Source: Candidatus Uhrbacteria bacterium
GTDB taxonomy: Bacteria; Patescibacteriota; Patescibacteriia; UBA9934; GWF2-40-263
NCBI GenBank assembly: GCA_016844925.1
Contig: JAERTI010000043.1
Coordinates: 66,642 to 130,641 of the forward strand
Reading direction: 5' to 3'
DNA length: 64,000 nt
Both the position numbers and the translations under genes were made by a program. The notes under the pieces were generated by a model that was not told the origin of the DNA, searched no databases, and worked only from the letters and a program-made list of their open reading frames with translations. Within the stretch, counting starts at the first letter, position 1. Each line of letters starts with the position of its first letter. Shown here piece after piece: positions 22,030 through 63,914 of this stretch.

Positions 22030-23525
<1,496 letters not shown>

Positions 23526-23530
23526 ATATA

Positions 23531-36008: not shown

Positions 36009-36214
36009 AGAAAAGACGCCTGGTATCGGAGGAAGTAGAAAACGACGGGGCCAGCGTGAAAATAAAATCAGACGCCGGGGCGTCGTATTCAGTCTTCCTT
36101 TGCATCTTTCCCTTGCGGGATGGAGTTCGCACCTTATCGATTACTCGACAGGTTGCGGGCAGGTCATAGGGCCAATTCCCTCACTGCTCTCTGAATACGT
36201 TTCTTCAGTTGTTG

Positions 36215-40416: not shown

Positions 40417-40953
40417 TTACTCAGCAGCCTCTTCGGCTGGCTTCTCTTCTTCCGCAGGTGCTTCCTCTGCAGGAGCCTCCTCGGCCGGAGCTTCAGCCTC
40501 TGCGGCTGGTTCCTCTGCAGGAGCCTCTTCAGCTGGAGCTTCAGCTTCTGCCTTAGCAGCCTCGGCCTCAGCCTTAGCAGCCTCTGCAGCAGCAGCCTTC
40601 TCTTCTTCAGCCTTTGCCTTTGCAGCCTCTTCCTTCTCCTTAGCAGCAGCAGCCTTTTCTTCGATCTTTGCTGCGCGCTTCTTGGAGATGTGTGTAGAGC
40701 CACGCTTTTCACCTTCGACGATCTTTTGGTCGACGAGGAGGTTCCAGACGCTGTTAGAAGGCTGGGCACCCTGGCTGATCCAGTACTTTACGCGGTCAGC
40801 CTTGATGACGATTTCCTTAGGATTTGAGCGAGGGTTGTAGTGGCCAAGGATCTCGTTTGAGTCGGCCCATGGGTCGCGGTGCTTAGGCATTACAACAATG
40901 CGGTAAACCGGACGCTTTTTTGACCCCACGCGGGAGAGTCGAATAGAAAGCAT
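40417..40953 (-). CDS. rpsP: 30S ribosomal protein S16 with about 95-aa Ala/Glu/Lys-rich C-terminal extension
   Basis: MLSIRLSRVGSKKRPVYRIVV S16 N-terminus; repetitive AEEAPAEE tail encoded by tandem DNA repeats. Confidence 0.85.
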   Translation of the reverse strand: MLSIRLSRVGSKKRPVYRIVVMPKHRDPWADSNEILGHYNPRSNPKEIVIKADRVKYWISQGAQPSNSVWNLLVDQKIVEGEKRGSTHISKKRAAKIEEKAAAAKEKEEAAKAKAEEEKAAAAEAAKAEAEAAKAEAEAPAEEAPAEEPAAEAEAPAEEAPAEEAPAEEEKPAEEAAE

Positions 40954-43134: not shown

Positions 43135-43160
43135 ACCCATAACAACCCAATCCGCGAAGG

Positions 43161-43265
43161 CTAGTGAGGAACACGTCCTCACTAGCCACCAGAAATCTGT
43201 TCACGATCAGTGATCGTGACTGGGTTCTTGGGAAGAATGAGTCAACCCAGGAAAGGAGCCAAGGA
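43161..43265 (+). promoter_or_regulatory. duplicated leader region, copy 1: CTAG-hairpin, 19-bp perfect palindrome TCACGATCAgTGATCGTGA, CTGGGTT/AACCCAG stem, AAGGAG RBS
   Basis: near-identical copy at 43645..43750. Confidence 0.6.
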
Positions 43266-43625
43266 ATGGCTGAAGAGATCAAGACCGCTAAGGAGCTCAA
43301 TGACTACCTCGAAGAGATGGAGGTACAGATGAATGCTCAGCGGGCTGTGTGGATGGAGCGCAACGCCACCGGCGAGGTGTTCATCCTCGAGAATGGAACG
43401 GTCACCGACCGCTACCTGGTCGCTGAGGGGGTCGAGAATGGTGGGCTGTGCTTTGGATCGGAAGATCCCAAAAAAGCTTTCCACAACATGACCTTTAAGA
43501 TTGAGGGCAGGACCGTGGAGATCACGATTGAGTGTCCCAGCTTCCGGGCGCACATCGACTTCAACACCATCACGGAGGTTAGGGGCATGACGCTCCTGGC
43601 CGTTCCACGCAGTGTTCGTGGGTAG
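43266..43625 (+). CDS. hypothetical protein, paralog (GGLC...ECP Cys motifs)
   Basis: AAGGAG RBS; paralog of 43751..44128. Confidence 0.55.
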   Translation: MAEEIKTAKELNDYLEEMEVQMNAQRAVWMERNATGEVFILENGTVTDRYLVAEGVENGGLCFGSEDPKKAFHNMTFKIEGRTVEITIECPSFRAHIDFNTITEVRGMTLLAVPRSVRG

Positions 43626-43750: not shown

Positions 43751-44128
43751 ATGGCTGAAGCAGCACTCGTCGCCCTCAAATCTCGACTCGCAGACATTCG
43801 ACTGAACATCTCTCAGCTGGAAGAGGCTGAGGAGAAGGCAATCCGAGAGTACTGTGATGAGAACGCGATGGCTGAGGTGAAGGTAATCGAGAAGAGCAGC
43901 GGAAAAGTGATTCGCACTTACCGCGTTGCGCGCGGTGTCTACAGCGGTGGTCTCTGCAACAGCTCGAACGTCGAAGAGCTGTGCTACGAGAACATGCAGT
44001 TCACCGTGAAGGACAACGAGAAGACCGTCCTCATGCGGGTCGAGTGCCCGCACTACATCACGGAGCTGCCCAACGACCAGCTCTTCAACTACAAGGACGT
44101 GCAGATCCTCGTGATCTGGCTGTCGTAG
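43751..44128 (+). CDS. hypothetical protein, paralog
   Basis: AAGGAG RBS; shares GGLC and ECP motifs with 43266..43625. Confidence 0.55.
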   Translation: MAEAALVALKSRLADIRLNISQLEEAEEKAIREYCDENAMAEVKVIEKSSGKVIRTYRVARGVYSGGLCNSSNVEELCYENMQFTVKDNEKTVLMRVECPHYITELPNDQLFNYKDVQILVIWLS

Positions 44129-45098: not shown

Positions 45099-45132
45099 CG
45101 CTCGACCGAGGAGAACGTCCTCGTGTCGGGCT

Positions 45133-45174
45133 CCTCAACGTAGAGCTCGAGCTTGCTTGAGACCTGCGTTGAGG
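45133..45174 (+). repeat. attC-like repeat, A-type (CCTCAAC gtagag CTCGAG n4 CTCGAG acctgc GTTGAGG)
   Basis: preceded by GAGGAgaacgTCCTC hairpin. Confidence 0.6.
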
Positions 45175-46453: not shown

Positions 46454-46506
46454 GCTGAGGCTCTCTTGATCAAATCCTCAGTGCTACTGGGGTAAAGGAA
46501 CACGAC

Positions 46507-49340: not shown

Positions 49341-49392
49341 GCTGAGGCTCTCTTGAACACACCCCCGGCAATGTCCGGGTAAAGGCTGCGAG

Positions 49393-51279: not shown

Positions 51280-51325
51280 AGTCAGAACAACGGCTCGACC
51301 GAGGAGTACGTCCTTGTGTCGGGCT

Positions 51326-51367
51326 CCTCAACGTAGAGCTCGAGCTGACTCGAGACCTGCGTTGGGG
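51326..51367 (+). repeat. attC-like repeat, A-type
   Basis: CCTCAAC...CTCGAGctgaCTCGAG...GTTGGGG. Confidence 0.6.
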
Positions 51368-51736: not shown

Positions 51737-51790
51737 TCGCCACTGACTTGGTTTCGATGCAGTAAGATCGAGATCAGATCAGTGGTGTGA
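51737..51790 (+). repeat. possible highly diverged attC-like repeat (CCACTGA ... TCGAT gcagtaag ATCGA ... TCAGTGG)
   Basis: architecture conserved, R-boxes unrelated. Confidence 0.3.
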
Positions 51791-51919
51791 AAACCACTTC
51801 GCAGGATGTTCGTGGGGATTGGTCGACCACGGACGCGAAATTTCTAATCCGAAAGGTACTCTAAGCAGGCTTGCTCGGCTTGCTGCGACCAAAGAGTTGA
51901 GTTCTACAAGTGAGGACTC

Positions 51920-52651
51920 ATGAGCAAGATGGAAGAGATCCGCCAGACGGTGGCGGACAACATGCATCGCGTGGCCAAGCTCGGCCAGTGGCCCAGCCAC
52001 ATCAACGCCGAGAAGAGCCTGCTGAGCCGCATTCCCGAGCCGGGCAAGGAAGCCCCTGGGTTCGACGCCGGCATCGCCTGCGCGCTGGGCCTGATCCCGC
52101 GCGACAAGCAGCAGCTGGCGGCGCAGCTGCACGCCAACTACACCCCCAAGGCGGTGAAGCTGGTGCGGCGCCAGTCCGTTCAGATGCACGAGGACGCCCC
52201 CACCACCTGGTGGCTCGCCGCGTGCTGGCTCTGCGACGAGGCCGGTGTGAGTCAGCGAGACTTCCTGCGCCAGGTGAGTGCGTTCAAGCGCCTCGCTGCG
52301 GATCCGCAGACCAGGCGCAAGGTCGCCCGGGAGGAGCTGGAGCGCAAGAAGAAGCTCTTCGTCGTTCTGGACGGCATCGCCTACGGCGCTCAGGATGGTG
52401 CTGCGCAGGGAGCGTACATCGCTGGGGTGGACCTCGCGGTGGTGTGGATGGAGAAGTACGGTATCTACTTCGTCAGCACCTACCACGAGAGCCTCGGCCT
52501 GGAGGACTTCGTCTGGTCCGACCGTGTCGACGACCAGGGGCGGCTCATGAGCGGCCCGATCCACGGCTCGCGCCAGTTCGTGAAGACCGGCTCCCAGGAG
52601 GAGCTCGGCAAGATGCTGGAGATCGCCAAGGCCCACCTGGCCATCGGCTAG
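51920..52651 (+). CDS. hypothetical protein, paralog family X (PGFDAGIACAL, TWWLAA, SLGLEDF.WSD)
   Basis: about 45% identical to 53453..54202. Confidence 0.6.
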   Translation: MSKMEEIRQTVADNMHRVAKLGQWPSHINAEKSLLSRIPEPGKEAPGFDAGIACALGLIPRDKQQLAAQLHANYTPKAVKLVRRQSVQMHEDAPTTWWLAACWLCDEAGVSQRDFLRQVSAFKRLAADPQTRRKVAREELERKKKLFVVLDGIAYGAQDGAAQGAYIAGVDLAVVWMEKYGIYFVSTYHESLGLEDFVWSDRVDDQGRLMSGPIHGSRQFVKTGSQEELGKMLEIAKAHLAIG

Positions 52652-52737
52652 ATCTCGTCGAGCTCAGCTCGACAAACGACCCTGTTAGGCACGGACGACC
52701 TGACAGGAGCACTCCCAAGTCATCACGCGACTTGGGG

Positions 52738-52847
52738 ACTCAACGGAGAGGTTGATACGAATATTCCTCGAGCAACGTCGAGAGGCTGTATATGCAGCAC
52801 TTCGACAGGCTCAGTGAATATTCGCGTGATTGACACCTGCGTTGGGG
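52738..52847 (+). repeat. attC-like repeat, long B-type variant (110 bp) with nested 10-bp stem ACGAATATTC/GAATATTCGT
   Basis: ACTCAAC...GTTGAT...TTGAC acctgc GTTGGGG. Confidence 0.5.
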
Positions 52848-52897
52848 AAACTGCTTTTCCCACGGTCCGGTTCACGCCGGAAAAGGCAATAGCTGAA

Positions 52898-53239
52898 ATG
52901 TTTGAGTCCGAGGTCCTTAACGGGCTTGCGGTGGTTCTAGTCTACGTTCTGCCGTTTGGATGCGCGTTCCTTATCGCCTACAAAGGAGAGTGGTTCGAGA
53001 GGGTGCGTGCGTTCAGTTCATGGTTCGAGATGGCGATCGGAGACGAGAGTCTCGATGGTTCTCGAAAGAGGCGTGGTGACAGGTACCTGTACCTGGCCAA
53101 CGCGATACTCATCGGCATCTGCACCGGCATGCTCGTGACAACTGGTACACGTGAGTTCAGTGCCTCCGCAACGATCAATCTGGTGGTGTGTCTACTTTGG
53201 GGGGTCTTCCAGATTTACCTCCTGAGGAAGCGACGGTAA
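52898..53239 (+). CDS. membrane protein (113 aa)
   Basis: three hydrophobic helices. Confidence 0.45.
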   Translation: MFESEVLNGLAVVLVYVLPFGCAFLIAYKGEWFERVRAFSSWFEMAIGDESLDGSRKRRGDRYLYLANAILIGICTGMLVTTGTREFSASATINLVVCLLWGVFQIYLLRKRR

Positions 53240-53329
53240 GCACACGGGCCGACTGACGTCGCTCTCGGTTTGCAAGATGACCGAGGGTAGACGATGCCTG
53301 GCGCGAGGAGAACGTCCTTGTGTCGGGCT

Positions 53330-53400
53330 CCTCAACACAGAGGTTGATGAACCACGTAAAACCCTTCGGGTCACGTGGCAGGTCGACACCTGCGTTGGGG
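53330..53400 (+). repeat. attC-like repeat, B-type
   Basis: followed by palindrome ACCTGCCGGCAGGCAGG. Confidence 0.6.
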
Positions 53401-53452
53401 ACTTACCTGCCGGCAGGCAGGAACCCATCTTTCAACTTCAAGGAGGGGTCAC

Positions 53453-54202
53453 ATGACCTTCGACATCAGGGGTGCCGCAGAGGCACTGGAGACCGTGCGT
53501 GACAACGTGGAGCGCGTGGCAGCGCTGGGTGAGTGGAGCGCGAACGAGCACGCCAAGGGGCGTCTGATCGGGCGCGTCCCGCAGGACAACGATGGTGAGG
53601 ACGAGGTACTGGCTCCCGGCTTCGACGCCGGCATCGCCTGCGCGCTGAGCATGATCCCCGAGGACAAGCAGCGGCTCAGCGCCGTCCTGCACGCGGCGTA
53701 CACGCCCGAGGCCATCGCGCAGCTGCGTGGTGAGCTCGAGAACATGACCCCCGGCACCGAGACCACCTGGTGGCTCGCTGCCAGCTCGCTGTGCGAGGAG
53801 GGGAACATCTCCGTGCTCAGCTTCATGGCCCAGGTGCGCCAGTTCGAGCAGCTGATGCTGGATCCGGCCAAGCGCCTGATGGCCGCCAAGGCCGAGTGGA
53901 ACAAGCTCAAGGGCAGCTTCCAGGACATGAACGGTGTCGCCTACACCACGGTGGATGGTGGCATGCAGGCTGGCTACATCGCTGGTCACAAGCTGGCGGT
54001 GGGATACGCCGAGAACTACGGCATCCACTTCGTGGGCACCTACCTGCCCAGCCTGGGCCTCGAGGACTTCGAGTGGTCCGACGTCTGTGACAAGCAGGGT
54101 CGCTCCACCAGCGGCCTGCTCGGACCGAACTTCGCCAAGGTCGGCGATCTGGTCGAGCTCGGTGAGGTCATCAAGATCGCCCGGGCCCACCTGAAGATCT
54201 AG
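53453..54202 (+). CDS. hypothetical protein, paralog family X
   Basis: AAGGAGG RBS. Confidence 0.6.
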   Translation: MTFDIRGAAEALETVRDNVERVAALGEWSANEHAKGRLIGRVPQDNDGEDEVLAPGFDAGIACALSMIPEDKQRLSAVLHAAYTPEAIAQLRGELENMTPGTETTWWLAASSLCEEGNISVLSFMAQVRQFEQLMLDPAKRLMAAKAEWNKLKGSFQDMNGVAYTTVDGGMQAGYIAGHKLAVGYAENYGIHFVGTYLPSLGLEDFEWSDVCDKQGRSTSGLLGPNFAKVGDLVELGEVIKIARAHLKI

Positions 54203-54209
54203 GAGACAG

Positions 54210-54371
54210 ATGAAAGAATGGATTCAGGGGCTGCTGAAAAAGTACTTCAGCCCCCCACCACCGCGACGTCCAACCGTCTACGTGGTGCACGGACCCGCTT
54301 ACCGCTCGCGCTGGAGCTGCCGGTGCGACGAGACGGAACCCGATTGGCAGGACAGCTGCTACTGCGGGTAA
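54210..54371 (+). CDS. small Cys-rich peptide (53 aa; C.C.ETEPDWQDSCYC)
   Basis: AGGAG RBS 4 nt upstream; not in ORF track (under 60 aa); C-terminus resembles 55849..56067. Confidence 0.4.
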   Translation: MKEWIQGLLKKYFSPPPPRRPTVYVVHGPAYRSRWSCRCDETEPDWQDSCYCG

Positions 54372-54414
54372 GAGTCTGACGGCTCGACCGAGGAGAACGT
54401 CCTCGTGTCGGGCT

Positions 54415-54456
54415 CCTCAACGGAGTTCTCGATTTCGGTCGAGACCTGTGTTGGGG
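54415..54456 (+). repeat. attC-like repeat, A/C hybrid (CCTCAAC ggagtt CTCGAT ttcg GTCGAG acctgt GTTGGGG)
   Basis: mixed L-boxes. Confidence 0.55.
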
Positions 54457-55848: not shown

Positions 55849-56067
55849 ATGGAGAACGAAGAAACCATCGAGACAGAAAGGACGGCCATGGACCGATTCA
55901 TTCAGGGGCTGCGGAGTTTCTTCCGCTGGGACCCCGAGTCTGAAAAGGTGCAAGAGATCGCGTTGGTCCCCACCGGACCCAAGCGGAAGCGTCCGCGTCA
56001 CCCCGAGACCGGCTGCTACTGCGAACCGGACCCTGAGTGGCAGGAGTACTGCCACTGCTGGCACTGA
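55849..56067 (+). CDS. small Cys-rich protein (72 aa; GCYCEPDPEWQEYCHCWH)
   Basis: C-terminal motif shared with 54210..54371. Confidence 0.45.
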   Translation: MENEETIETERTAMDRFIQGLRSFFRWDPESEKVQEIALVPTGPKRKRPRHPETGCYCEPDPEWQEYCHCWH

Positions 56068-56109
56068 GCCCTACGGCTCGACCCGAGGAGAACGTCCTCG
56101 CGTCGGGCT

Positions 56110-56151
56110 CCTCAACGGAGTTCTCGATTTCGATCGAAACCTGCGTTGAGG
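56110..56151 (+). repeat. attC-like repeat, A-type
   Basis: CCTCAAC ggagtt CTCGAT ttcg ATCGAA acctgc GTTGAGG. Confidence 0.6.
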
Positions 56152-56728: not shown

Positions 56729-56784
56729 GCGTGAGTACATGAGCCCTACGGCTCGACCCGAGGAGAACGTCCTCGCGTCGGGCT

Positions 56785-56830
56785 CCTCAACGGAGAGGTT
56801 GATTCGCGAGAATCGACACCTGCGTTGAGG
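56785..56830 (+). repeat. attC-like repeat, short B-type
   Basis: CCTCAAC ggagag GTTGAT tcgcgaga ATCGAC acctgc GTTGAGG. Confidence 0.55.
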
Positions 56831-62645: not shown

Positions 62646-62697
62646 TGGGGAACCATCCCTACAAACGTCCCGGCGTATCCGGGTAAAGGACACAGAG

Positions 62698-62859
62698 ATG
62701 GTAGAACAGGCATTTTTCGCAGGCGTGATCGCCGCGGGACTCGCTCTTCTTCTGGGAGCGCTGCTTCAGCGCTGGTTCAAGCACATCAAGAACAACGCGA
62801 CCCTGGAGACGACCAAGCCCTGGGCGGACGATGGAGGTGAAGATGGAGATGAGTCCTGA
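62698..62859 (+). CDS. small membrane protein (53 aa)
   Basis: cccggc..ccggg-TAAAGGA leader. Confidence 0.4.
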   Translation: MVEQAFFAGVIAAGLALLLGALLQRWFKHIKNNATLETTKPWADDGGEDGDES

Positions 62860-63286
62860 GGCAACGATCTACCTCACTGGAGTGGGCGTCGTAGCAGTAC
62901 TGGCTCTCGGCTTGTACGTGTACTTCCTGATCCGTTCCTCGCAGAAGCTGTGGATCCTCCACACCATGCGGGTGAATAAGGGTCCCGTCTACGCGTTCGC
63001 GTCGGCGGTCTCCTGGGGCGTTCCCTACACCTGGGTTCATGCACAAGACCAGCCTTCGTCATCGTCGCTGTTTGTGAAGCAGGTGAGCAAGACAACTCTG
63101 TGTGCTTCACTCTCGGTTGGTGAGGAGTATCACAAGACCGAGATTGGTCTGGAGCTTGATCAGGAGATGTCGTTCAGCTACAAGACTGGGGTCATGATCC
63201 AGGAAATCCACGTGTTTCCGGATGAGCAGGACGTCCTTCGGTTTTGTCGAGATCACGAGATCCACCTGGCTTCGGTCTTCGACTAG
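62849..63286 (+). CDS. membrane-anchored protein, paralog family Y
   Basis: GGAGGTG RBS; paralog of 63471..63914. Confidence 0.5.
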   Translation: MSPEATIYLTGVGVVAVLALGLYVYFLIRSSQKLWILHTMRVNKGPVYAFASAVSWGVPYTWVHAQDQPSSSSLFVKQVSKTTLCASLSVGEEYHKTEIGLELDQEMSFSYKTGVMIQEIHVFPDEQDVLRFCRDHEIHLASVFD

Positions 63287-63384: not shown

Positions 63385-63425
63385 TCTCTGGCTTCTCGAG
63401 TTCGCTCGAGGGGCAGGAGAGGGAA
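63385..63425 (+). repeat. diverged A-type attC-like repeat (CCTCTC ... CTCGAGttcgCTCGAG ... GAGAGG)
   Basis: R-boxes changed but still complementary. Confidence 0.4.
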
Positions 63426-63470
63426 TCATCCCTACGAACGTCCCGGCGTATCCGGGTAAAGGATAGAGAG

Positions 63471-63914
63471 GTGAGTTCCGAGTTCATTACCGTCATGGTA
63501 TGGATCACGGTCATTGGCTTCATTTGCGTGGGGCTGACCTGGTACATGCTCAAGCGTTCGTACAGGAAGTTGTGGGTGCTGCACACGGTGCAGTTCACGG
63601 GCAGCAAGCAGATCCACGGCTACCTCAAGCCTGTGGCCTGGCGCGAGCCTTACGTGCAGCTGTTCCATCCGGTGCACCCGCTGCATGGAAACCGTCTGAC
63701 GGTTCGCTGGATCGGTGAGCATTCTGCGTGGGTGCGCTGGGAGACTAGCGACGGCCGCATGGAGTCCAGGATTGGGCTCGGAAGCGGCTTGAAGACCAAC
63801 GTGGCATTCACTGTTGGCACTATCACCACCGAGGTCCGCGTGTTCGCGGGCCCTGATGGGGTAATGATTTTCTGTCGTGACAACGGCGTTGAGCTGATCA
63901 GAGAGCGGGGATAG
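63471..63914 (+). CDS. membrane-anchored protein, paralog family Y
   Basis: same leader as 62665..62697, GTG start. Confidence 0.5.
   Translation: MSSEFITVMVWITVIGFICVGLTWYMLKRSYRKLWVLHTVQFTGSKQIHGYLKPVAWREPYVQLFHPVHPLHGNRLTVRWIGEHSAWVRWETSDGRMESRIGLGSGLKTNVAFTVGTITTEVRVFAGPDGVMIFCRDNGVELIRERG

What the first reader, a model, noticed from the sequence alone, without database searches (positions are those of the whole stretch)
51920..54202. Paralogous cassette protein family X (about 245 aa) in two separate cassettes
51920..52651 and 53453..54202 are about 45% identical (PGFDAGIACAL, TWWLAA, YIAG..LAV, SLGLEDFxWSD) with no recognisable Pfam-type signature. A second family (Y) occurs at 62849 and 63471.

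Retention of diverged paralogs in independent cassettes implies selection for the function and suggests a diversified effector or immunity family.
Basis: seen in the sequence. Interest (0 to 1): 0.5.

Follow-up and report, generated by a model that had tools for sequence, protein, structure and literature searches.

The report
Undescribed protein family duplicated in cassettes
Two diverged copies of a compact, well-conserved but completely unannotated protein family sit in separate mobile gene cassettes of an integron-like array; the family is real and spread patchily across distant bacteria, and its fusions to RNA-end-processing enzymes hint at an RNA or nucleotide function rather than a toxin/immunity role.

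Summary
X1 (51920-52651, 243 aa) and X2 (53453-54202, 249 aa) are 48% identical (E 2e-75). They lie in separate cassettes bounded by attC-like hairpin sites; a related strain lacks the cassette between them. No integrase is found in the window or at either end of the related array, so this is a CALIN-type array.

The family has no Pfam, NCBIfam, PHROG, PADLOC or PDB sequence match. It is small (135 clusters among 1.84 billion proteins) but tightly conserved, with 27 invariant columns. Members occur in Patescibacteria, uncultured "Gammaproteobacteria" MAGs, Myxococcota, Actinomycetota and a cultured Miltoncostaea.

Some members are fused to CCA-adding/poly(A)-polymerase-type nucleotidyltransferase plus HD domains, to HD alone, or to a methyltransferase.

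Most likely reading, held at low confidence: a stand-alone, horizontally mobile, probably metal-dependent module acting on RNA 3' ends or small nucleotides. X2 has a remodelled conserved motif, so the copies probably differ in function. The effector/immunity idea is not supported. Family Y is real but an orphan.

The parts
51740..51785 (+). Class-B hairpin site (CCACTGA...TCAGTGG); left boundary of the X1 cassette
   Evidence: Sequence read. It belongs to a 7-copy repeat family, all on the + strand. The bottom strand folds as an imperfect hairpin, z -2.2.
51920..52651 (+). X1: 243-aa soluble protein of the undescribed family, preceded by a GAGGA ribosome-binding site
   Evidence: ORF. 203 homologs at 45-55% identity. 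AF2 pLDDT 97.2, pTM 0.91. It is the most basic member of the family, pI 8.4.
52738..52847 (+). Class-A attC-like site (110 nt; R'' ACTCAAC ... R' GTTGGGG); right boundary of the X1 cassette
   Evidence: Bottom-strand fold z -4.7. The homology breakpoint with the related strain falls at 52848.
52848..53400 (+). Intervening cassette: a membrane-protein ORF ending at 53239, plus its attC-like site at 53330-53400. Present in the window only.
   Evidence: It is absent from L004-L006, where the X1-like and X2-like genes are 290 bp apart. Site read.
53453..54202 (+). X2: 249-aa paralog with a remodelled conserved C-terminal motif (SGLLGPNFA instead of SGPVHGSxQFV) and lacking Cys102
   Evidence: AF2 pLDDT 95.8 with the same order of secondary-structure elements as X1. 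pI 4.8.
54210..54371 (+). 53-aa Cys-motif ORF (CxC...PDWQxxCxC) sharing the X2 cassette, 7 nt after the X2 stop codon
   Evidence: Weak paralog at 55849-56067. The related strain carries a 33%-identical version although X2 itself is 92.6% nt identical.
54415..54456 (+). Class-A attC-like site (42 nt); right boundary of the X2 cassette
   Evidence: Fold z -3.6. Included in the pair-count alignment.
62849..63286 (+). Y1: about 145-aa protein with an N-terminal TM helix. Its cassette is present in the window only.
   Evidence: The segment 62700-63421 is absent from the related strain.
63471..63914 (+). Y2: 147-aa paralog of Y1 in the next cassette
   Evidence: Ortholog at 89% identity in L004. 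No other homolog in the 5.8-billion-protein search.

Best explanation
X1 and X2 are two old paralogs of an undescribed, compact family of about 240-aa cytoplasmic proteins. Each is carried as its own gene cassette in a large integrase-less, attC-type array (CALIN) inserted next to rpsP. This much is shown.

The fold is an all-helical N-terminal half plus a small alpha/beta C-terminal half. It has many invariant polar residues (D49 in GFDAG, H71, Y74, Q64, Q118, Q163, T187, S211, E228) and conserved cysteines (C54 and a C102-x-x-C105 pair). This looks like an enzyme or a specific ligand binder, not a scaffold.

Inferred, at low confidence: the protein acts on RNA 3' ends (tRNA-type substrates) or on small nucleotides, using or assisting phosphoester chemistry. 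It does so alone in the cassette versions. In the fused versions it acts together with Cca-type nucleotidyltransferase/HD or HD domains.

The gene moves horizontally as a self-contained unit. That would explain its patchy spread across phyla with uniform identity of about 50%. X2 has lost the otherwise near-invariant SGPVHGSxQFV motif and one Cys of the CxxC, and it differs from X1 by 15 charge units. The two copies therefore probably differ in substrate or role rather than being redundant.
For: Paralogy and cassettes.

attC-like architecture: 17 sites share the layout R''-5-L''-loop-L'-6-GTTGRGG. 94% of cells are paired against 25-48% in slid controls, and two L-box pairs show compensatory changes.

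No integrase.

Family size and conservation.

Confident models.

Fold matches are weak but consistent in three libraries. The top hits are DHH/DHHA1 phosphoesterases (PAP phosphatase 8a8k, RecJ2, NrnA, PggH, GdpP, NrN, phage NrnB) and the DHHA1-like AlaRS C-Ala domain.

Fusions: PolyA_pol head + RNA-binding + HD + X in three independent contigs (P0122, L014, L027). The N-terminal part matches PAP/CCA-adding enzyme structures. Also HD + X (P0126), DUF6687 + X + HD (P0165) and X + Methyltransf_32/TRM13-like (P0121).

Sporadic RNA-linked neighbours: S1 protein, PNPase, DEAH helicases, Ro60/TROVE.

Purifying selection. X2 motif loss. Charge difference.

From my own knowledge, not tested here: the HD domain of E. 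coli Cca has 2',3'-cyclic phosphodiesterase and phosphatase activities, which links this fusion partner to tRNA 3'-end repair.
Against: The functional inference has no direct support.

Profile comparison with a genuine DHH/DHHA1 protein is null, probability 0.2. No DHH or DxD motif is conserved, and the N-terminal half has no beta-sheet.

The family is acidic (median pI 5.0, net charge -10), which is unusual for a general RNA binder.

Only about 24 of 253 members have extensions of 90 aa or more, and only four of those involve HD. One of the four (P0163) was judged by eye only.

No neighbour is conserved across 34 loci. tRNA genes near X occur at about the background density of small genomes.

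dN/dS of about 0.4 indicates rather relaxed constraint in this lineage.
Confidence: 0.35

Rival explanations
1. Anti-phage defence or counter-defence cassette. X would be a single-gene system that degrades a nucleotide immune signal or a phage nucleic acid, as the DHH-type NrN or the Apyc1 enzymes do. The multiple diverged copies would broaden specificity.
For: About 18% of tested Vibrio cholerae integron cassettes of unknown function are anti-phage (10.1101/2024.07.02.601686). Fold hits include NrN, which is bound to SAM-AMP in the structure, and phage NrnB. The related array holds three paralogs. The distribution is patchy and HGT-like. An Apyc1-like MBL gene lies a few kb away in two loci.
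Against: No PADLOC hit for X or its fusion proteins. No phage homolog among 50,697 phage records. In several MAGs the gene sits as a single copy among core genes. The family is conserved rather than fast-diversifying.
Confidence: 0.2
2. Non-catalytic RNA/tRNA-binding adaptor. X would be a C-Ala/DHHA1-like recognition module that recruits or presents substrates to separate enzymes.
For: The C-terminal half resembles AlaRS C-Ala and class II aaRS anticodon-binding domains at low Z. X occurs as an accessory domain of Cca-type enzymes.
Against: Median net charge is -10. The many invariant polar and Cys/His residues suggest chemistry. Most members stand alone with no conserved partner.
Confidence: 0.15
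3. Effector or immunity family of an inter-bacterial conflict system. The small Cys-motif ORF after X2 might be the cognate partner.
For: The family is multi-copy and cassette-borne, with relaxed dN/dS of about 0.4. The small ORF after X2 was swapped for a 33%-identical version in the related strain while X2 stayed 90% identical.
Against: No secretion, trafficking or toxin domain was found. There is no partner gene next to X1, next to P0043, or in most other genomes. Cross-phylum conservation is strong. Members are fused to housekeeping-type RNA enzymes.
Confidence: 0.1
4. Metal- or redox-dependent enzyme of small-molecule metabolism, unrelated to nucleic acids. The fusions and fold hits would be incidental.
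For: Conserved C54, the C102xxC105 pair and invariant H71. The protein is acidic. Genomic neighbourhoods are varied.
Against: Fusion to NTase/HD/MTase domains recurs in different architectures. The only consistent fold neighbours are nucleotide or nucleic-acid phosphoesterases.
Confidence: 0.15

Closest known systems
DHH/DHHA1 phosphoesterases (RecJ, NrnA/NrnB, PAP phosphatase, GdpP/PggH, NrN; Pfam PF01368 and PF02272)
   Different: There is no sequence or profile relation: Pfam none, hhalign probability 0.2. No DHH triad or DxD is conserved. The N-terminal half is all-helical instead of a five-stranded alpha/beta domain. X is 70-90 residues shorter than most DHH proteins. Conserved Cys/His residues replace the Asp/His metal ligands.
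C-Ala domain of alanyl-tRNA synthetase (DHHA1-like tRNA-binding domain)
   Different: X is acidic. It has a large conserved helical domain of its own and is mostly free-standing.
Integron gene cassettes of unknown function in sedentary chromosomal integrons and CALINs (Cury et al. 2016, PMC4889954)
   Same: One or two promoterless, co-oriented ORFs lie between folded attC-type sites. Cassettes are present or absent between strains. Paralogous cassettes occur within one array.
   Different: No integrase or attI is adjacent. The sites are unusually short (42 nt minimum). Two different site classes are mixed in one array, one of them (…ATCGGTGG) without the canonical GTT core.
Bacterial class II CCA-adding enzyme with HD domain (E. 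coli Cca type)
   Same: Some X members are the C-terminal domain of proteins with exactly this NTase + RNA-binding + HD layout.
   Different: The window's X1 and X2 have neither domain. No Cca-like gene is adjacent to them.

Membership tests
DHH/DHHA1 phosphoesterase superfamily | Sequence or profile match to the DHH (PF01368) or DHHA1 (PF02272) models | tested here: not met
   No Pfam hit for X1 or X2 at E<=1, and neither DHH nor DHHA1 among the families listed for the 58 members at E<=10. hhalign of the family profile against a genuine DHH/DHHA1 protein of the related strain gives probability 0.2.
DHH/DHHA1 phosphoesterase superfamily | Catalytic motifs I-IV (DxD, D, DHH, D) on an N-terminal five-stranded alpha/beta domain | tested here: not met
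   The invariant columns contain no DHH or DxD. DSSP of the confident model shows residues 1-144 as helices only.
DHH/DHHA1 phosphoesterase superfamily | Overall fold similarity | tested here: inconclusive
Integron gene cassette | ORF bounded by attC-type sites: imperfect hairpin with R''/R' and L''/L' boxes, unpaired spacers, and a conserved GTT in R' | tested here: met
   17 class-A sites share one architecture. 94% of cells are paired against 25-48% in slid controls, with compensatory changes in two L-box pairs. 16 of the 17 matches to ACCTGCGTTGGGG (up to 2 mismatches, both strands) lie on the + strand between 45162 and 56830, against 1.7 matches expected by chance in the whole window. The site upstream of X1 is of a second, non-canonical class.
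Integron gene cassette | Cassette-wise gain or loss between related genomes, with breakpoints at the sites | tested here: met
   Window and L004/L044 are collinear, with indels whose ends fall at the GTTGRGG sites (52848, 53385, 55080, 56108, 59254, 61122 and others).
Integron gene cassette | Adjacent integron integrase (IntI) and attI | tested here: not met
   tblastn with IntI1 (sequence written from memory) finds nothing at E<=10 in the window and only hits above E 1.9, taken as noise, at both ends of the related array, which is flanked by rpsP/radical SAM and SMC-like/DHH/ClpP genes. Hence CALIN. The rest of the genome could not be searched.
Polymorphic toxin / immunity (effector-immunity) families | Toxin or trafficking domain, a cognate adjacent partner, and hypervariability | tested here: not met
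   No Pfam or PADLOC domains. No conserved neighbour in 34 loci. About 70 columns are at least 90% conserved.
Cca-type NTase/HD RNA-end repair modules | Physical linkage (fusion or operon) with a class II nucleotidyltransferase and an HD phosphohydrolase | tested here: inconclusive
   Met for a minority of family members (P0122, L014, L027, P0126, P0165). Not met for X1 or X2 in the window.
   All named homologs are 'hypothetical protein'. No NCBIfam hit. No PDB sequence match.

The most novel reading that the evidence does not exclude
X is a previously unrecognised enzyme family. It would be either a radically reduced offshoot of the DHH/DHHA1 phosphoesterases or a new fold. It would heal or trim damaged RNA/tRNA 3' ends, or destroy a nucleotide signal. 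It would be traded between Patescibacteria and other phyla as a ready-made integron cassette, with arrays keeping several specificity variants (X1, X2, P0043).
Probability: 0.15. Interest if true: 0.7.

Novelty: new variant of a known kind. Interest (0 to 1): 0.45.

Why it matters
Most integron cassettes encode proteins of unknown function, and very few of those families have any handle for experiments. This family offers several:
- a very confident structure model;
- a defined set of invariant residues;
- informative domain fusions;
- a homolog in a cultured organism, Miltoncostaea oceani WP_217925022.1.

If the RNA-end or nucleotide reading is right, it adds a new catalytic or recognition module to RNA repair or nucleotide-signal turnover. 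It would also show that such modules circulate as cassettes between candidate-phyla-radiation bacteria and other lineages. If the reading is wrong, the family is still a clean candidate for a new Pfam/DUF entry. The array itself, with short attC-like sites of two classes and no integrase, is a useful test case for attC detection outside Proteobacteria.

Tried and rejected
- Libraries: Pfam, NCBIfam, PHROGs and PADLOC scans of X1, X2, Y1 and Y2 gave nothing. So did scans of 58 family members and 20 fusion proteins, apart from the fused domains.
- A PDB sequence-profile search returned only a chance MerR hit at E 0.25.
- AFDB50 Foldseek was unavailable, so annotated AlphaFold neighbours could not be checked.
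- A conserved operon partner was sought by clustering all ORFs within 6 kb of X in 34 loci; none was found. The best was an unannotated protein of about 338 aa in 5 loci.
- tRNA-gene adjacency: 24 tRNAs in about 450 kb, which I judge to be about background for small genomes.
- Integrase search in the window and in the related strain's array ends: none found. A 346-aa unannotated ORF beyond the array is not IntI-like.
- Recent local duplication of X1/X2 is rejected. Their distance (0.545) exceeds the family median (0.498). NJ nevertheless groups X1, X2, P0043 and P0081 in one small clade, so an old duplication within the cassette pool cannot be told apart from independent capture.
- Organism identification is only partial. 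The window lies on a 261,502-bp NCBI contig that could not be fetched. The closest named ThrA is 75% identical, from a MAG labelled 'Parcubacteria group bacterium'. The 16S rRNA carries the EUB338-II (Planctomycetales-type) signature.
- Literature searches for DUF6687 and for the family found nothing relevant.
- Deaminase-like (HxE...PCxxC) and 2H phosphoesterase (2x HxT/S) readings of the motifs were considered by eye and dropped, because the fold and motif spacing do not fit.
Full report
**Observation.** The window encodes two + strand ORFs exactly where stated. X1 runs 51920-52651 (243 aa) and X2 runs 53453-54202 (249 aa). BLASTP aligns them end to end at 48% identity, E 2e-75. tblastn finds no further copy in the window. 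The quoted motifs are all present. The second family is also real: Y1 (62831/62849-63286) and Y2 (63471-63914) are 25% identical, E 1e-17, and each has an N-terminal hydrophobic helix.

**Cassette context.** From about 41.2 kb to the end of the window, almost all ORFs are short and on the + strand. They are separated by repeated elements.
- Sixteen copies of ACCTGCGTTGRGG lie on the + strand between 45162 and 56830. Chance predicts 1.7 matches in the whole window on both strands.
- Seventeen such sites share one architecture. It reads R'' (nYYSAAC, 7 nt), a 5-nt spacer, L'' (7 nt), a loop of 4-72 nt, L' (7 nt), a 6-nt spacer, then R' GTTGRGG.
- On an alignment of the boxes, 94% of cells pair, against 25-48% when the partner is slid. 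Two L-box pairs change on both sides (C-G to G-C in 7 sites; G-C to U-A/U-G in 9 sites).
- The bottom strands fold better than shuffles, z -3.6 to -4.7.

This is the anatomy of integron attC sites, although the shortest sites (42 nt) are unusually small. A second class of hairpin site (…GAGAGCGGATCGGTGGA, seven copies) is interspersed. One of these forms the left boundary of the X1 cassette at 51740-51785.

**Cassette layout around X.**

| Cassette | Span | Contents |
|---|---|---|
| X1 | about 51786-52847 | X1 |
| Intervening | 52848-53400 | a membrane-protein ORF |
| X2 | 53401-54456 | X2 plus a 53-aa Cys-motif ORF starting 7 nt after its stop |

**Comparison with a related strain.** Metagenome contigs L004-L006, L044 and L045 are about 90% nt identical to the window. 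They have the same left flank (radical SAM gene, rpsP) and a collinear array with cassette-sized indels whose ends fall on the GTTGRGG sites. The cassette between X1 and X2 is missing there, so the two X genes are neighbours. The Y1 cassette is also missing. That array ends with a third X paralog, P0043, which is 52% identical to X1. Beyond it lie SMC-like, DHH/DHHA1 and ClpP genes. No integrase-like sequence is found in the window or at either end of the related array. The structure is therefore best called a CALIN, a cluster of attC sites lacking an integrase (term from PMC4889954).

**The family.** X1 finds 203 full-length homologs at 45-55% identity. All are unnamed or 'hypothetical', and none carries a Pfam domain. 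An exhaustive HMMER search of 1.84 billion cluster representatives finds only 135 clusters, 128 of them at E<=1e-10. The family is small but sharply defined. In a 58-sequence alignment, 27 columns are invariant: G22, W24, R37, P39, GFDAG 47-51, A53, I59, Q64, L66, H71, Y74, W98, F115, Q118, G160, Q163, G169, T187, G193, L194, S211, G212 and E228. About 70 columns are at least 90% conserved. These include C54 and C105; C102, the other Cys of the C102-x-x-C105 pair, is 86% conserved.

**Distribution.** GTDB representative genomes with the family are:
- Patescibacteria (Magasanik-, Uhr-, Collier-, Berkel- and Peribacteria, Paceibacter);
- uncultured 'Gammaproteobacteria'/Pseudomonadales MAGs;
- Myxococcota and 'Deltaproteobacteria';
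- an actinomycete MAG.

The plasmid collection adds a cultured host, Miltoncostaea oceani SCSIO 61214 (WP_217925022.1, 'hypothetical protein'). No phage record has the family. Near-uniform identity of about 50% between phyla, together with this patchy distribution, argues for horizontal spread.

In about 13 of 35 other loci, the sequence flanking X recurs elsewhere in the same locus. In L015/L046 and L017 the repeats bracket the gene. That fits cassette-like mobility elsewhere too, although I did not show those repeats to be attC sites. In other MAGs X is a single gene among ordinary chromosomal genes.

**Structure.** AlphaFold2 models are very confident for both paralogs: X1 pLDDT 97.2, pTM 0.91; X2 pLDDT 95.8, pTM 0.90. 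Both show eight helices (residues 1-144 of X1) followed by a small alpha/beta domain. No solved structure is close.
- Foldseek against PDB ranks PAP phosphatase (E 1e-2), NrN, NrnA and RecJ2 first.
- Foldseek against viral models ranks phage NrnB and giant-virus DHH hydrolases first.

The agreement between libraries makes a distant relationship plausible, but membership fails. There is no Pfam DHH or DHHA1 hit in any member. hhalign against a true DHH/DHHA1 protein gives probability 0.2. No DHH or DxD motif is conserved, and the N-terminal half has no sheet. The conserved loop SGPVHGSxQFV occupies a position comparable to the GGGH motif of DHHA1; this is my reading, not a test.

**Functional leads.** Twenty-four of 253 members carry extensions of 90 aa or more. 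The informative ones are these.
- PolyA_pol head + RNA-binding + HD + X occurs in three independent contigs (P0122, L014 from a Collierbacteria MAG, L027 from a Pseudomonadales MAG). The N-terminal part matches poly(A) polymerase and CCA-adding enzyme structures.
- HD + X (P0126).
- DUF6687 + X + HD (P0165).
- X + Methyltransf_32/TRM13-like methyltransferase (P0121).
- P0163 has an HD-like HHHEG...LHDIKK stretch, seen by eye only.

Two deeper subfamilies of about 700 and about 1300 aa carry a divergent X-like N-terminus and long unannotated tails. No neighbour is conserved across loci. RNA-linked genes do recur nearby: an S1 protein, PNPase, DEAH helicases and Ro60/TROVE. The HD domain of E. 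coli Cca is known to me, but was not tested here, as a 2',3'-cyclic phosphodiesterase/phosphatase linked to tRNA 3'-end repair.

Together these leads point to RNA 3' ends or small nucleotides as the substrate class, with phosphoester chemistry nearby. Two facts count against a plain RNA binder: the family is acidic (median pI 5.0), and most members have no partner.

**The two copies.**
- Both are under net purifying but relaxed selection against the related strain's orthologs: dN/dS 0.41 and 0.42 at dS about 0.15.
- They are as far from each other (distance 0.545) as from homologs in other phyla (median 0.498). NJ still places X1, X2, P0043 and P0081 in one small clade. They are therefore old paralogs, and it is unresolved whether they were duplicated in the cassette pool or captured separately.
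- X2 is the most deviant of 58 members at conserved columns (12 of 71). Six of those changes fall in the SGPVHGSxQFV motif (X2 has SGLLGPNFA). Separately, X2 carries Ser in place of Cys102, a column that is 86% conserved.
- X1 is the most basic member (pI 8.4), while X2 has pI 4.8.

The copies are thus unlikely to be redundant.

Paralogy, separate cassettes, absence of any known signature and retention under selection all hold. 'Diversified effector or immunity family' is not supported. The family is conserved rather than diversified. It has no toxin, trafficking or defence-model hit. It lacks a cognate neighbour, and it is fused to RNA enzymes. A defence or counter-defence role remains possible on prior grounds, because about 18% of tested V. 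cholerae cassettes of unknown function are anti-phage (10.1101/2024.07.02.601686).

**Family Y.** It is confirmed but is an orphan. Y2 has no homolog other than itself among 5.8 billion clustered proteins in the word-indexed search. It has an 89% ortholog in the related strain, which lacks Y1.

**Novelty and score.** The family is undescribed in Pfam, NCBIfam, PHROGs, PADLOC and the PDB, and RefSeq calls it hypothetical. Its only known relatives are a weak, fold-level resemblance to DHH/DHHA1-type proteins. I rate it a new variant of a known kind: an integron cassette carrying a distant DHH-like or possibly new fold. Interest is moderate at 0.45. It is a well-defined, experimentally approachable unknown with suggestive RNA links, but no function is demonstrated and no long-standing question is resolved.

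Noticed in passing
window 44222, 44607, 51740-51785, 59235, 60016, 61107, 61978 (+ strand): A second class of hairpin boundary site (CYACTGA...L-box stem...ATCGGTGG/TCAGTGG) is mixed with the GTTGRGG-type sites in the same array. It lacks the canonical GTT core of attC R'. A similar architecture (CCATCAA...TCGATGG) follows the X gene in L020, an unrelated MAG.
   Followed up: partly
window 41200-64000; related loci L004, L044: The cassette array has no integrase at either end. It lies between rpsP/radical SAM and, in the related strain, SMC-like/DHH/ClpP genes. It is over 22 kb in the window and holds about 35 ORFs in the related strain. Many cassette-sized differences separate two strains that are about 90% identical.
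   Followed up: partly
window 54210-54371 and 55849-56067; L004 11780-11965: A small Cys-motif protein family (IQGL...CxC...P(D/E)WQxxCxC). One copy shares the X2 cassette. In the related strain that position holds a 33%-identical version, although X2 is 92.6% nt identical and the similarity breaks right after the X2 stop codon.
   Followed up: partly
window 46454-46498, 49341-49385, 62651-62695, 63421-63465: Several cassettes begin, just after the R' box, with a conserved leader: a small hairpin followed by GGGTAAAGGA (Shine-Dalgarno-like). This suggests a shared translation-initiation or regulatory element carried by cassettes.
   Followed up: no
window 45100-45140, 51293-51330, 53297-53335, 54382-54420, 56077-56115, 56740-56790: A conserved palindrome (CGACCGAGGAGAACGTCCTCGTGTCGG) sits immediately upstream of the R'' box in about seven cassettes. 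A second one (CCCAAGTCAnnACGCGACTTGGGG) sits there in others. Their role is unknown; they may be a terminator or part of an extended site.
   Followed up: no
window 22031-23527 (-): A 16S rRNA gene stands alone with no adjacent 23S. It carries the EUB338-II (Planctomycetales-type) target and an unusual CAGCAGCAGCGG at the 515 region. The closest named ThrA homolog (75%) is from a MAG labelled 'Parcubacteria group bacterium'. The organism is an uncultured, poorly placed lineage.
   Followed up: partly
window about 27000 and about 39000: G+C jumps from 46-51% (1-27 kb) to 59-64% (27-39 kb). It then stays at 54-63% through the array, so composition is heterogeneous within a single contig.
   Followed up: no
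window 36099-36201 (-): A SAM-I riboswitch (55.5 bits, above the Rfam gathering score) lies inside the high-GC block.
   Followed up: no
window 40417-40953 (-): Ribosomal protein S16 carries a C-terminal low-complexity tail of about 110 aa (Ala/Glu/Lys-rich). It is encoded by degenerate tandem repeats at 40422-40655.
   Followed up: no
window 43164-43625 and 43751-44128 (+): Another paralogous pair of cassette proteins (153 and 125 aa; 29% identity, E 6e-11), together with 117-nt repeats at 43159 and 43644.
   Followed up: no
window 62699-62859 (+): The Y1 cassette starts with a 53-aa single-TM ORF whose end overlaps the Y1 start. The mechanical ORF list merges it into a 154-aa ORF that begins inside the upstream attC-like site.
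   Followed up: no
L018 2948-3982 and 4397-5041: A Berkelbacteria MAG also has two X-family genes within 1.5 kb of each other, so local multiplicity of this family is not unique to the window's lineage.
   Followed up: no
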